From the NCBI RefSeq assembly GCF_048403405.1, contig NZ_CP183129.1: a DNA stretch of 64,000 nucleotides. One strand, written 5' to 3'. Of the stretch, positions 3,854 to 63,690 are shown one piece after another. The DNA comes from Escherichia coli (lineage in GTDB: Bacteria > Pseudomonadota > Gammaproteobacteria > Enterobacterales > Enterobacteriaceae). The notes under the pieces were generated by a model. The model did not search any database. It saw nothing but the letters and a program-made list of their open reading frames with translations, and was not told the DNA's origin. The translations under genes were made by a program, and so were the position numbers. Every line of letters starts with the position of its first letter. Position 1 is the stretch's first letter.

Positions 3854-3929
3854 TGGTGCCCGGACTCGGAATCGAACCAAGGACACGGGGATTTTCAATC
3901 CCCTGCTCTACCGACTGAGCTATCCGGGC
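3854..3929 (-). tRNA. pheV: tRNA-Phe (GAA)
   Basis: Reverse complement matches the E. coli tRNA-Phe sequence over 76 nt including the CCA end; located next to yqgA as pheV is in K-12. Confidence 0.95.
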
Positions 3930-61220: not shown

Positions 61221-62453
61221 ATGGCAAAGGTATCGCTGGAGAAAGACAAGATTAAGTTTCTGCTGGTAGAAGGCGTGCACCAAAAGGCGCTTGAAAGCCT
61301 TCGTGCAGCTGGTTACACCAACATCGAATTTCACAAAGGCGCGCTGGATGATGAACAATTAAAAGAATCCATCCGCGATGCCCACTTCATCGGCCTGCGA
61401 TCCCGTACCCATCTGACTGAAGACGTGATCAACGCCGCAGAAAAACTGGTCGCTATTGGCTGTTTCTGTATCGGAACAAACCAGGTTGATCTGGATGCGG
61501 CGGCAAAACGCGGGATCCCGGTATTTAACGCACCGTTCTCAAATACGCGCTCTGTTGCGGAGCTGGTGATTGGCGAACTGCTGCTGCTATTGCGCGGCGT
61601 GCCGGAAGCCAATGCTAAAGCGCACCGTGGCGTGTGGAACAAACTGGCGGCGGGTTCTTTTGAAGCGCGCGGCAAAAAGCTGGGTATCATCGGCTACGGT
61701 CATATTGGTACGCAATTGGGCATTCTGGCTGAATCGCTGGGAATGTATGTTTACTTTTATGATATTGAAAACAAACTGCCGCTGGGCAACGCCACTCAGG
61801 TACAGCATCTTTCTGACCTGCTGAATATGAGCGATGTGGTGAGTCTGCATGTACCAGAGAATCCGTCCACCAAAAATATGATGGGTGCGAAAGAGATTTC
61901 GCTAATGAAGCCCGGCTCGCTGCTGATTAATGCTTCGCGCGGTACTGTGGTGGATATTCCGGCGCTGTGTGACGCGCTGGCGAGCAAACATCTGGCGGGG
62001 GCGGCAATCGACGTATTCCCGACGGAACCGGCAACCAATAGCGATCCATTTACCTCTCCGCTGTGTGAATTCGACAACGTCCTTCTGACGCCACACATTG
62101 GCGGTTCGACTCAGGAAGCGCAGGAGAATATCGGCCTGGAAGTTGCGGGTAAATTGATCAAGTATTCTGACAATGGCTCAACGCTCTCTGCGGTGAACTT
62201 CCCGGAAGTCTCGCTGCCACTGCACGGTGGGCGTCGTCTGATGCACATCCACGAAAACCGTCCGGGCGTGTTAACTGCGCTGAACAAAATCTTCGCCGAG
62301 CAGGGCGTCAACATCGCCGCGCAATATCTGCAAACTTCCGCCCAGATGGGTTATGTAGTTATTGATATTGAAGCCGACGAAGACGTTGCCGAAAAAGCTC
62401 TGCAGGCAATGAAAGCTATTCCGGGTACCATTCGCGCCCGTCTGCTGTACTAA
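61221..62453 (+). CDS. serA: D-3-phosphoglycerate dehydrogenase
   Basis: 410-aa ORF recognised as SerA. Confidence 0.96.
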   Translation: MAKVSLEKDKIKFLLVEGVHQKALESLRAAGYTNIEFHKGALDDEQLKESIRDAHFIGLRSRTHLTEDVINAAEKLVAIGCFCIGTNQVDLDAAAKRGIPVFNAPFSNTRSVAELVIGELLLLLRGVPEANAKAHRGVWNKLAAGSFEARGKKLGIIGYGHIGTQLGILAESLGMYVYFYDIENKLPLGNATQVQHLSDLLNMSDVVSLHVPENPSTKNMMGAKEISLMKPGSLLINASRGTVVDIPALCDALASKHLAGAAIDVFPTEPATNSDPFTSPLCEFDNVLLTPHIGGSTQEAQENIGLEVAGKLIKYSDNGSTLSAVNFPEVSLPLHGGRRLMHIHENRPGVLTALNKIFAEQGVNIAAQYLQTSAQMGYVVIDIEADEDVAEKALQAMKAIPGTIRARLLY

Positions 62454-62473
62454 TTCCCCTTCTCTGAAAATCA

Positions 62474-62505
62474 ACGGGCAGGTCACTGACTTGCCCGTTT
62501 TTTTT
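62474..62505 (+). terminator. serA intrinsic terminator
   Basis: Hairpin acgggca-ggtcactgact-tgcccgt followed by TTTTTTTT. Confidence 0.8.
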
Positions 62506-62614
62506 ATCCCTTCTCCACACCGTTGCCGCGTTGCGCATTCTACTTTGCGAGTCTGCTCCAGAAAATAAATCAAAGTCAGATCAATGCGTTGTGTTTATTT
62601 AATGGGGATTTACG

Positions 62615-62760
62615 ATGGCAGGACAGCATGGGGCTGTAACGGTAAAGCCCTCACCGAAGCGAGGGCTTAAAGGAGAAGGGTTATGATGCGACTTGTCATC
62701 ATACTGATTGTACTGTTACTCATAAGTTTGCCAGCTTATTAACAGTCAGTCACAGGGGAG
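62615..62760 (-). ncRNA. sibC: SibC (RygC) antisense sRNA, antitoxin to ibsC; boundaries approximate
   Basis: Inferred from the ibsC position (Sib RNAs are transcribed antisense across the whole ibs ORF); ends not determined. Confidence 0.45.
62683..62742 (+). CDS. ibsC: Type I toxin IbsC (19-aa hydrophobic peptide MMRLVIILIVLLLISLPAY)
   Basis: Strong Shine-Dalgarno (AAGGAGAAGGG) before the ATG; peptide closely resembles Ibs toxins; position between fau and serA matches the K-12 sibC/ibsC locus. Confidence 0.75.
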   Translation: MMRLVIILIVLLLISLPAY

Positions 62761-62842
62761 GAGTAATCCTCCCTTACCCTTACTCACTAAATTAGGTTAA
62801 AGAATCAACGATGTCAATCAGGGCGATGCAGGTGTGTCGCCC

Positions 62843-63391
62843 TCACCACTCCCAGACTTTCGACGGTGTAACCACCGCAGGAAGAGGGATATCCCACTCT
62901 TCAACGGGGAGTTTTTCCACCAACTGACAATCATGCGCATAACCCACCGGTTGCATTTTATAGTGCTGCCAGTTTTGTAAGGTCCGATCATAAAAACCAC
63001 CGCCCATTCCCAGGCGCTGGCCGTACTCATCAAAGGCGACCAGCGGTGTGATCAACACGTCTAATCGGGAAAGGGGGAGCACGTCACGCACATCCAGTTT
63101 TGGCTCATGGATCTTCAACCTGTTCATCACCAGTTCGCTTTGCGGATGGTAATTCAGGAACAGCAAATTACCGGCACTAAAGGGATGCAAAACTGGAAGA
63201 TATACGCGCTTACCGGCGCGCCAGAGTTGTTCTATGAGTGGCTGGGTGTCGAGTTCGCCATCAAAAGAGAGGAATACAGCAACCGTATGTGCCATCATCA
63301 CTGGGGGATAAGTCATCATCCGGGTAGCAGCTTGTTGACCCATTTTCAGCTGTTGTTCCGGCGTTAACGCACGACGACGTTGCCGAATCAT
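62843..63391 (-). CDS. fau: 5-formyltetrahydrofolate cyclo-ligase
   Basis: 182-aa product starting MIRQRRRALTPEQQ; the track ORF runs on through ssrS and is over-extended. Confidence 0.92.
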   Translation of the reverse strand: MIRQRRRALTPEQQLKMGQQAATRMMTYPPVMMAHTVAVFLSFDGELDTQPLIEQLWRAGKRVYLPVLHPFSAGNLLFLNYHPQSELVMNRLKIHEPKLDVRDVLPLSRLDVLITPLVAFDEYGQRLGMGGGFYDRTLQNWQHYKMQPVGYAHDCQLVEKLPVEEWDIPLPAVVTPSKVWEW

Positions 63392-63462
63392 TTTGCGGAT
63401 TTCTTGTCGAGATAATGTCAGTGGGAGTTCTGGTAGTTGCGTCATGGCTGGTGCCAGATAAG

Positions 63463-63648
63463 AAGGGAATCTCCGAGATGCCGCCGCAGGCTGTAACCCT
63501 TGAACCCTTGGTTCAAGGTGAATGTGTCGTCGCAGTTTTAAGGCTTCTCGGACGGACCGAGCATGCTCACCAACCGCGGAGCGCCACATTCTTGTGGTAT
63601 GAAATATCGGCTCAGGGGACTGGCCCGCTTGCGAACATCTCAGAGAAA
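63463..63648 (-). ncRNA. ssrS: 6S RNA
   Basis: Reverse complement reads ATTTCTCTGAGATGTTCGCAAGCGGGCCAGTCCCCTGAGCC…CGGAGATTCCCT, the E. coli 6S RNA; immediately upstream of fau as in K-12. Ends approximate to a few nt. Confidence 0.93.
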
Positions 63649-63690
63649 TTTTGTCTTCACGGTTACTCTACCACAGTAAACCGAAAAGTG

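What the first reader, a model, noticed from the sequence alone, without database searches (positions are those of the whole stretch)
62600..62780. Type I toxin-antitoxin locus ibsC/sibC missed by the ORF track
A 19-codon ORF with a near-ideal RBS encodes a hydrophobic peptide closely resembling Ibs toxins, at the K-12 sibC position between fau and serA. The antisense SibC sRNA should be encoded on the opposite strand. The peptide appears to differ from my recollection of K-12 IbsC near its C-terminus.
Basis: partly seen in the sequence, partly recalled or inferred. Interest (0 to 1): 0.4.

Follow-up and report, generated by a model that had tools for sequence, protein, structure and literature searches.

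The report
Known ibsC/sibC toxin-antitoxin locus, natural allele
This is the well-known E. coli ibsC/sibC type I toxin-antitoxin pair (a 19-residue membrane toxin gene overlapped by an antisense RNA that silences it), present here as a natural, already annotated allele whose peptide ends LPAY instead of K-12's FSAY, so it is real but ordinary.

Summary
A 19-codon ORF (62683-62742, +; MMRLVIILIVLLLISLPAY) lies 7 nt after an AAGGAG Shine-Dalgarno. It sits inside a full-length Rfam SIB_RNA match on the opposite strand (138.4 bits against a gathering score of 56, E 1.6e-29), between serA and fau. That is the K-12 sibC position. K-12's curated 141-nt sibC maps without indels to 62641-62781 (-), 134/141 identical.

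The peptide differs from K-12 IbsC at two residues, F16L and S17P. These come from four adjacent bases (62730-62733) in SibC nt 49-52. Those bases lie in the loop of target-recognition domain 1, which Han et al. 2010 showed sets Sib/ibs specificity.

The allele is not new. RefSeq annotates the identical protein (WP_100635201.1, "Ibs family toxin"). The exact patch occurs in 345 of 5,426 complete E. coli genomes. Most of these are O157:H7, where it is the fau-proximal copy of a tandem pair. It also occurs at the same locus in a divergent Escherichia species. Leu16 is common across the Ibs family.

No transcript, toxicity or repression was tested here. Function is inferred by orthology. Interest is low: already known.

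The parts
62683..62742 (+). ibsC-type toxin ORF, 19 codons plus stop: MMRLVIILIVLLLISLPAY
   Evidence: Translation. Identical to RefSeq WP_100635201.1, 'type I toxin-antitoxin system Ibs family toxin', in strain 144 and in O157:H7. 17/19 identical to K-12 IbsC.
62670..62675 (+). Shine-Dalgarno AAGGAG, 7 nt before the ATG
   Evidence: Read from the sequence. Conserved in all alleles aligned.
62623..62781 (+). Inferred ibsC mRNA (159 nt)
   Evidence: Han et al. 2010 (PMC2943612) report a 159-nt ibsC mRNA with an 18-nt 5' overhang beyond the SibC duplex. I mapped this onto the window through the gap-free alignment to K-12. It folds at -63.8 kcal/mol, z -6.19. Not measured in this strain.
62589..62616 (+). 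Putative ibsC promoter: TTGTGT (62589-62594), 16-nt spacer, TACGAT (62611-62616)
   Evidence: My own reading of the sequence upstream of the inferred +1. The hexamers are identical in K-12. The site falls below the consensus scanner's threshold and was not reported. Inference only.
62641..62781 (-). SibC antitoxin sRNA (141 nt)
   Evidence: K-12 curated sibC (b4446) aligns without indels, 134/141 identical. Rfam SIB_RNA 138.4 bits. Folds at -53.8 kcal/mol, z -5.63.
62789..62817 (-). SibC promoter: -35 TTGACA (62817-62812), 17-nt spacer, -10 TAATTT (62794-62789), +1 at 62781
   Evidence: Read from the sequence. The Rfam model's first positions are this conserved TTGACA. The +1 is taken from the K-12 annotation. 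The -10 matches only 3 of 6, so the scanner did not report it.
62645..62668 (-). SibC 3' terminator hairpin (AAGCCCTCGC-TTCG-GTGAGGGCTT), followed by TTACC
   Evidence: MFE structure. The K-12 sibC 3' end lies just after it. The scanner did not report it because the U-run is short.
62714..62736 (-). TRD1 (SibC nt 46-68), the apical loop of the long hairpin, complementary to ibsC codons 11-18
   Evidence: Domain limits from Han et al. 2010, mapped. The loop position is seen in the fold.
62667..62683 (-). TRD2 (SibC nt 99-115), complementary to the ibsC Shine-Dalgarno and the first base of the start codon
   Evidence: Domain limits from Han et al. 2010, mapped. One difference from K-12 at nt 113 (window 62669).
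62730..62733 (.). Four-base variable patch (ibs strand GCCA, SibC nt 52-49). It makes codons 16-17 TTG CCA (Leu-Pro), where K-12 has TTC AGC (Phe-Ser).
   Evidence: Alignments. It is the most variable spot among the K-12 paralogs sibA-E. It overlaps G49CU51, the bases Han et al. swapped to retarget SibC to ibsD.

Best explanation
This is the E. coli ibsC/sibC type I toxin-antitoxin module, present as a single copy and as a natural allele.

The + strand encodes a ~159-nt mRNA for a 19-residue, very hydrophobic peptide. When made in excess, the peptide inserts into the inner membrane and depolarises it. The - strand encodes the 141-nt SibC RNA from a promoter with a consensus -35. SibC is fully complementary to the mRNA.

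SibC first contacts the mRNA through two single-stranded recognition domains. TRD1 is a hairpin loop that pairs with codons 11-18. TRD2 pairs with the ribosome-binding site. Pairing then spreads, translation is blocked, and the mRNA is degraded.

The two amino-acid differences from K-12 (F16L, S17P) come from four bases in the TRD1 loop. The two genes are exact complements, so the toxin mRNA and antitoxin change together and stay matched.

What was shown here: sequence membership, anatomy, synteny, folding and population distribution. What is inferred from K-12 experiments: transcription, toxicity and repression.
For: - Rfam SIB_RNA full-length match, 138.4 bits against a gathering score of 56.
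- Gap-free 134/141 identity to the curated K-12 sibC.
- The ORF is 17/19 identical to K-12 IbsC and identical to RefSeq WP_100635201.1 'Ibs family toxin'.
- Same serA / fau / ssrS / zapA neighbourhood as K-12.
- Both transcripts fold much better than shuffles, z -5.6 and -6.2, with the variable patch in the apical loop.
- The mechanism and the TRD1/TRD2 limits are from Han et al. 2010 (PMC2943612). Toxicity and membrane depolarisation of IbsC are from the review PMC8309996.
- Coding constraint: summed entropy by codon position is 8.45 / 4.84 / 13.47 over 35 distinct family ORFs. Escherichia sp. E1V33 and O157:H7 copy 2 keep the identical peptide despite synonymous changes.
- Leu16 is a normal family state, seen in 10 of 35 distinct ORFs. 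Hydrophobicity is unchanged: GRAVY 2.45 against 2.44.
- The window's SibC keeps only 7-14-nt uninterrupted matches through the TRDs to non-cognate ibs mRNAs, including the ibsD/E-position genes of the 100%-matching strain. K-12 SibC against ibsD gives 12-13 nt, and that pair does not cross-react experimentally.
Against: - Nothing was measured in this strain: no transcript, toxicity or repression data.
- The consensus promoter/terminator scanner reported neither promoter nor either terminator of the module. Those assignments rest on orthology with mapped K-12 ends.
- Residues 6-19, including the C-terminus, are reported as needed for IbsC toxicity. I could not read the primary mutagenesis paper (Mok 2010), so the effect of F16L and S17P specifically is unknown.
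Confidence: 0.93

Rival explanations
1. The module is present, but this toxin allele is attenuated or non-toxic because Phe16, which is invariant in the five K-12 Ibs peptides, is replaced by Leu. The locus would then be a decaying TA pair, or would survive only for the sRNA.
For: F16 is invariant among K-12 IbsA-E. The C-terminal and central residues (6-19) are reported as required for toxicity.
Against: Leu16 occurs in 10 of 35 distinct Ibs ORFs across Escherichia, Citrobacter, Kluyvera and Pseudocitrobacter. The identical peptide is kept in 345 E. coli genomes and in a lineage about 94% identical in flanking DNA, with only synonymous changes in the ORF. IbsC is reported to tolerate extensive mutation without loss of toxicity (PMC7192591). 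Phe to Leu is conservative, and hydrophobicity is unchanged.
Confidence: 0.04
2. The short ORF is an untranslated by-product of a structured non-coding repeat (the QUAD/SIB repeat). Only the sRNA would be functional.
For: A 19-codon ORF alone is weak evidence, and translation was not tested here.
Against: There is three-base periodicity of variation across family ORFs. The start MM[KR], the stop position, Ser15 and Tyr19 are invariant, or nearly so, in 35 distinct ORFs from several genera. A strong Shine-Dalgarno at the correct spacing is conserved. Published work shows that Ibs peptides are toxic when expressed and that Sib deletion is lethal if the cognate ibs is expressed.
Confidence: 0.02
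3. This concerns origin, not function. The window's single module may be a collapse recombinant of a tandem pair like the one in O157:H7. The part from the ibs promoter through TRD2 would come from the serA-proximal copy. The part from the TRD1 patch to fau would come from the fau-proximal copy.
For: SibC nt 113 (A on the ibs strand, 62669) and the upstream flank match O157 copy 1. The GCCA patch and the downstream flank match O157 copy 2. Copy number at this locus varies between 0, 1 and 2 among E. coli.
Against: Only a handful of informative sites are available. Escherichia sp. E1V33 has a single module with the same patch and the same nt-30 state. So an old single-copy LP allele plus one point change at nt 113 explains the data equally well. 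The AR_0067 single-copy FP allele differs from the window at only 5 of 283 positions.
Confidence: 0.3

Closest known systems
E. coli K-12 ibsC/sibC (b4665/b4446), type I toxin-antitoxin
   Same: Same chromosomal position (serA / fau / ssrS / zapA). Same 141-nt antisense RNA without indels, 134/141 identical. Same 19-codon ORF length, Shine-Dalgarno and start. Same hexamers in my promoter assignments on both strands, and the same terminator hairpin.
   Different: Seven substitutions in the SibC/ibsC overlap. Four of them are adjacent in the TRD1 loop (SibC nt 49-52), changing Phe16-Ser17 to Leu16-Pro17. One is in TRD2 (nt 113). The others are at nt 18 and nt 30.
E. coli O157:H7 fau-proximal Ibs gene (RefSeq WP_100635201.1)
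   Same: Identical peptide and identical TRD1 patch. 137/141 identical over the SibC region.
   Different: In O157:H7 it is the second of two tandem modules, 393 bp apart. The first encodes ...SFGAY. The window has a single module, and its upstream flank and nt 113 resemble the O157 first copy.
Most frequent patch class at this locus, ...ISFPAY (WP_071525914.1, e.g. strain AR_0067)
   Same: 138/141 identical over SibC and 278/283 over the module with flanks. The FP patch is found in 2,791 genomes.
   Different: One base in the patch (TTC to TTG, F16L), plus nt 30 and nt 113.
Paralogs sibA/ibsA, sibB/ibsB, sibD/ibsD and sibE/ibsE, and Ibs/Sib modules of other Enterobacteriaceae
   Same: Same architecture and the same Rfam family. 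Several (E. albertii IbsB-like, Citrobacter, Kluyvera, Pseudocitrobacter) also end ...ISLPAY.
   Different: Different loci. 63-79% peptide identity for the K-12 paralogs. Divergent TRD1 and TRD2 sequences, with only 5-14-nt uninterrupted matches to the window's SibC.

Membership tests
Sib RNA (Rfam RF00113 SIB_RNA) | Covariance-model score at or above the curated gathering threshold over the full model | tested here: met
   138.4 bits against 56, E 1.6e-29, model positions 1-147 of 147, at 62667-62817 (-) (seen again in the whole-window scan).
Sib RNA (Rfam RF00113 SIB_RNA) | Stable multi-hairpin fold with a closing P1 stem, a long hairpin whose loop carries TRD1, and a 3' terminator hairpin | tested here: met
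   MFE -53.8 kcal/mol, z -5.63, and 0 of 200 shuffles fold as well. The patch bases lie in the apical loop. The layout agrees with the description in Han et al. 2010.
Sib RNA (Rfam RF00113 SIB_RNA) | Expressed as an abundant ~140-nt transcript | not testable with these tools
   There are no expression data for this strain. The ends are inferred from the K-12 annotation.
Ibs toxin family (type I TA) | 18-19-residue hydrophobic peptide with the family pattern MM[KR]..II..LL..S..AY, encoded wholly inside the Sib gene on the opposite strand and preceded by a Shine-Dalgarno | tested here: met
   Peptide. Alignment to IbsA-E, with the invariant M1, M2, I6, I7, L11, L12, S15 and Y19 all present. The ORF 62683-62742 lies inside SibC 62641-62781. 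AAGGAG is at 62670-62675.
Ibs toxin family (type I TA) | Match to a curated protein-family model (NCBIfam or Pfam) | not testable with these tools
   The peptide has 19 residues. search_protein_families needs at least 20 and profile_search at least 30. As a substitute, NCBI's own pipeline names the identical protein WP_100635201.1 'type I toxin-antitoxin system Ibs family toxin'.
Ibs toxin family (type I TA) | Toxic on overexpression (membrane depolarisation) and repressed by the cognate Sib RNA | not testable with these tools
   Known for K-12 IbsC/SibC from the literature. Not measured for this allele.
ibsC/sibC ortholog specifically (as opposed to another Ibs/Sib paralog) | Location between serA and fau, and closest similarity to K-12 sibC among the five paralogs | tested here: met
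   Synteny. 134/141 identity to sibC, against clearly lower identity to sibA, B, D and E. Peptide identity is 89% to IbsC and 63-79% to the others.
ibsC/sibC ortholog specifically (as opposed to another Ibs/Sib paralog) | Same target specificity as K-12 SibC, i.e. identical TRD1 and TRD2 recognition sequences | tested here: not met
   TRD1 differs at 4 of 23 nt (nt 49-52) and TRD2 at 1 of 17 nt (nt 113). A 60-nt uninterrupted match (nt 53-112) remains between K-12 SibC and the window's ibs mRNA. Cross-repression is therefore likely but untested. This is an allelic difference and does not exclude orthology.

The most novel reading that the evidence does not exclude
The four-base TRD1 patch (SibC nt 49-52, Ibs codons 16-17) may act as a fast-evolving specificity barcode. 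It may be kept diverse among alleles and tandem copies of one locus, not only among paralogs. At the serA-fau locus E. coli carries at least four patch versions (FS, FP, LP, FG) on otherwise about 97-98% identical modules, in 0, 1 or 2 copies. The window's allele may be a recombinant of two copies. On this reading, selection for non-cross-reacting RNA pairs would drive the C-terminal amino-acid variation of the toxin, rather than the reverse.
Probability: 0.25. Interest if true: 0.3.

Novelty: already known. Interest (0 to 1): 0.1.

Why it matters
It matters little beyond annotation hygiene. The case shows that sub-20-codon toxin genes are dropped by length-filtered ORF tracks. It also shows that the K-12 sequence is only one of several common alleles at this locus.

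One point has mild general interest. All allelic amino-acid variation in this toxin maps to the bases that experiments identified as the antisense RNA's specificity determinant. Copy number at the locus also varies between 0, 1 and 2 among strains. Together these make the locus a convenient natural series for testing how cis-antisense pairs diverge without cross-talk.

Tried and rejected
1. My first translation was one base out of frame. It was corrected.

2. I first read the difference from K-12 as a single four-base event, or as a compensated +2/-2 frameshift. I dropped this after finding the ...SFPAY allele, which differs from the window by one base in the patch.

3. From identity bands of an 86-nt query I first estimated the window's allele at about 0.6% of genomes, and I called ...SFPAY the majority. 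Haplotype counts did not add up. I therefore redid the count with 40-nt patch-centred queries in which every megablast seed must span the patch: LP 345, FP 2,791 and FS 2,165 genomes. The extra LP genomes are O157:H7.

4. The consensus promoter/terminator scan found none of the module's own signals. It found only the serA terminator and one promoter-like site inside the ORF at chance frequency. Promoter assignments therefore rest on K-12 mapping.

5. The primary papers Mok et al. 2010 (PMC3009890) and Fozo et al. 2008 (PMC2597788) are not held. I used secondary summaries instead.

6. Two of the three differences from the FP allele fall in TRD1 or TRD2. By my own back-of-envelope estimate this is not significant: the TRDs make up 40 of 141 nt, which gives P of about 0.2.

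7. My first guess at the position of sibD/E in strain 144 landed in the capsule and type II secretion island. The second guess found it.

8. Protein-family HMM tools could not be used on a 19-residue peptide.

Full report
**What is in the sequence**

The spacer between serA (61221-62453, +) and fau (from 62843, -) is 389 bp. It holds a 19-codon ORF at 62683-62742 (+) that translates to MMRLVIILIVLLLISLPAY. An AAGGAG lies at 62670-62675, 7 nt upstream of the ATG. The ORF lister cannot show the ORF, because its floor is 20 aa.

On the opposite strand, Rfam's SIB_RNA model (RF00113) matches 62667-62817 over its full length. The score is 138.4 bits against a gathering score of 56, with E 1.6e-29 (repeated). 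The next features are 6S RNA (63466-63649, -) and zapA. This gives the K-12 order zapA, ssrS, fau, sibC/ibsC, serA, rpiA.

**Identity of the locus**

The spacer matches 5,425 of 5,426 complete E. coli genomes. It is 100% identical to strain 144 (NZ_CP023364.1), where RefSeq annotates the same 60-bp CDS as WP_100635201.1, 'type I toxin-antitoxin system Ibs family toxin'. Over 4 kb the window is 99.25% identical to strain 144, so it is a close relative and not necessarily that strain.

In K-12 MG1655 the curated features are sibC (b4446, 141 nt) and ibsC (b4665). K-12 sibC aligns to the window without any indel. This places SibC at 62641-62781 (-), 134/141 identical.

Han et al. 2010 report a 159-nt ibsC mRNA whose 5' end overhangs the SibC duplex by 18 nt. 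That puts the window's ibsC mRNA at about 62623-62781 (+).

Both RNAs fold far better than dinucleotide shuffles. SibC folds at -53.8 kcal/mol, z -5.63. The ibsC mRNA folds at -63.8 kcal/mol, z -6.19.

The SibC promoter reads TTGACA, 17 nt, TAATTT, with +1 at 62781. A candidate ibsC promoter reads TTGTGT, 16 nt, TACGAT. Both are below the threshold of the consensus scanner, which reported neither. They are therefore inferences from the K-12 ends.

**The difference from K-12**

K-12 IbsC is MMRLVIILIVLLLISFSAY. The window has F16L and S17P. At the DNA level this is TTC AGC changed to TTG CCA, four adjacent bases at 62730-62733.

I first considered a single multi-base event or a compensated frameshift. 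That reading does not hold up. A frequent E. coli allele...ISFPAY (TTC CCA; WP_071525914.1), differs from the window by one base in the patch. Over the whole 141-nt SibC region it differs at only three positions: nt 30, nt 52 and nt 113.

**Where the variable bases sit**

Han et al. 2010 (PMC2943612) defined two independent target-recognition domains in SibC. TRD1 is nt 46-68, the loop of hairpin P5, and it pairs inside the ibsC ORF. TRD2 is nt 99-115, and it pairs with the translation-initiation region. They also showed that changing G49CU51 to the SibD bases, together with the TRD2 swap, retargets SibC to ibsD.

In window coordinates TRD1 is 62714-62736 and TRD2 is 62667-62683. The four variable bases are SibC nt 49-52, in the apical loop of the predicted hairpin. 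The same spot is the most variable among K-12 sibA-E. The window also differs from K-12 at nt 113, in TRD2.

The two genes are exact complements, so toxin mRNA and antitoxin change together.

I checked whether the window's SibC would still be distinct from the other Sib/ibs pairs of its own lineage. In strain 144 the hldE-yqiK spacer carries ibsE and an ibsD-position gene. Uninterrupted complementarity through TRD1 or TRD2 between the window's SibC and these or the K-12 paralogs is only 5-14 nt. K-12 SibC against ibsD gives 12-13 nt, and that pair does not cross-react in experiments. K-12 SibC and the window's ibs mRNA still share a 60-nt perfect stretch. Cross-repression between these two alleles is therefore likely.

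**How common the allele is**

I used 40-nt queries with the patch in the centre, so that every 28-nt megablast seed must span it. The counts among 5,426 complete genomes were:

| Patch (codons 16-17) | Peptide ending | Genomes |
|---|---|---|
| LP (window) | ...SLPAY | 345 |
| FP | ...SFPAY | 2,791 |
| FS (K-12) | ...SFSAY | 2,165 |

Genomes with two copies can appear in more than one class.

Of the 345 LP genomes, 34 are identical to the window over all 40 nt. The listed members of this group have a single copy of the module. The sampled members of the other 311 are O157:H7 and close relatives.

In O157:H7 BB24-1 the locus holds two tandem modules 393 bp apart. The serA-proximal one encodes ...SFGAY (WP_071524576.1). 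The fau-proximal one encodes WP_100635201.1, which is exactly the window's peptide.

About 7,290 places were found in 5,422 genomes, so roughly a third of E. coli genomes carry two modules here. O157:H16 Santai (FP plus FS) and the divergent Escherichia record L019 (FG plus FP) are further examples. O157:H7 TR01 has lost the modules altogether. Compared with the window, the missing segment corresponds to 62630-62810.

**Family context**

A scan of species-representative genomes with a conserved Sib core pattern returned 30 loci from Escherichia, Citrobacter, Salmonella, Kluyvera, Pseudocitrobacter, Phytobacter and others.

- Residue 16 is Phe in 23, Leu in 10, Ser in 1 and Tyr in 1.
- Residue 17 is the most variable, with seven different amino acids.
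- M1, M2, I6, I7, L8, L12, S15 and Y19 are invariant.
- Summed entropy by codon position is 8.45, 4.84 and 13.47, the pattern expected of a translated sequence.

Escherichia sp. E1V33 is only about 94% identical to the window in this region. It has a single module at the same serA-fau position with the identical peptide, the same GCCA patch, and two synonymous changes in the ORF. So Leu16-Pro17 is an old or recurrent state and not a lesion.

**Possible origin**

The window's module shares nt 113 and its upstream flank with O157 copy 1. It shares the patch and downstream flank with O157 copy 2. This is compatible with collapse of a tandem pair by unequal recombination. However, too few sites are informative, and the E1V33 single-copy allele offers an equally simple explanation. 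I rate this at about 0.3.

**Mechanism and its basis**

Shown here: family membership of the RNA, the anatomy of both genes, synteny, folding, coding-type constraint, and preserved distinctness from paralogs.

Taken from K-12 literature:
- SibC pairs with ibsC mRNA through TRD1 and TRD2, and repression results in ibsC mRNA degradation. The SibC-ibsC duplex is cut by RNase III in vitro.
- IbsC overexpression depolarises the membrane and kills cells. Residues 6-19 matter for this.
- The gene tolerates extensive mutation without loss of toxicity.

Not tested: transcription, toxicity and repression for this allele.

**Verdict**

The locus and this very allele are already annotated in public genomes, so the finding is 'already known'. 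The only mildly interesting residue is that the allelic amino-acid variation coincides with the experimentally defined RNA specificity determinant, and that copy number varies. This extends to alleles an idea that Han et al. 2010 proposed for paralogs.

Noticed in passing
L042:479-931, L009:294-686, L019 (both copies); window 62454-62842 has one copy: The serA-fau spacer holds two tandem sib/ibs modules (393-bp period) in roughly a third of complete E. coli genomes: about 7,290 places in 5,422 genomes. The two copies always carry different TRD1 patches (FG+LP in O157:H7, FP+FS in O157:H16 Santai, FG+FP in L019).
   Followed up: partly
L003:2501-2707 (O157:H7 strain TR01); equivalent to window 62630-62810: This O157:H7 strain has a 207-bp serA-fau spacer that lacks the sib/ibs modules entirely. 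Other O157:H7 genomes carry two. Relative to the window, the missing segment runs from 7 nt inside the ibsC mRNA to just short of the SibC -35 box.
   Followed up: partly
L041:14860-14919 (strain 144, hldE-yqiK spacer): The ibsD-position gene of strain 144 encodes MMKLVIILIVLLLVSFATY, and its TRD1 patch differs from K-12 sibD (Sib strand GTGGCG against GCTGCG). The same patch therefore also varies between strains at a second Sib locus.
   Followed up: partly
window 62843-63589 (-): The mechanical ORF list shows a 248-aa ORF for fau that runs upstream into the 6S RNA gene (63466-63649). RefSeq annotates a 200-aa fau (603 nt), and K-12's curated record a shorter one (549 nt). The long ORF is an upstream-extension artefact.
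   Followed up: partly
window 3854-3929 (-): This is a tRNA-Phe (GAA) gene, probably pheV judging by its distance from sibC. pheV is a known island integration site, to my knowledge. In strain 144 the corresponding side of the chromosome carries capsule (kps), type II secretion, Ag43 and CbtA/YeeU island genes (L040). I did not examine the window sequence beyond the tRNA.
   Followed up: no
window 62707-62734 (-): There is a sigma-70-like match (CTGGCA, 16 nt, TACAAT) inside the ORF on the Sib strand, and it includes the variable patch. It is the only promoter-like site the scanner found in the spacer, at chance frequency (1 found, 0.9 expected). It is probably meaningless.
   Followed up: no
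RefSeq annotation of L001, L007, L042: NCBI's pipeline names the FS, FP and FG peptides 'IbsC', but gives the LP peptide only the generic name 'Ibs family toxin' with no gene symbol, although it sits at the same locus. This is a naming inconsistency and not a biological difference.
   Followed up: yes
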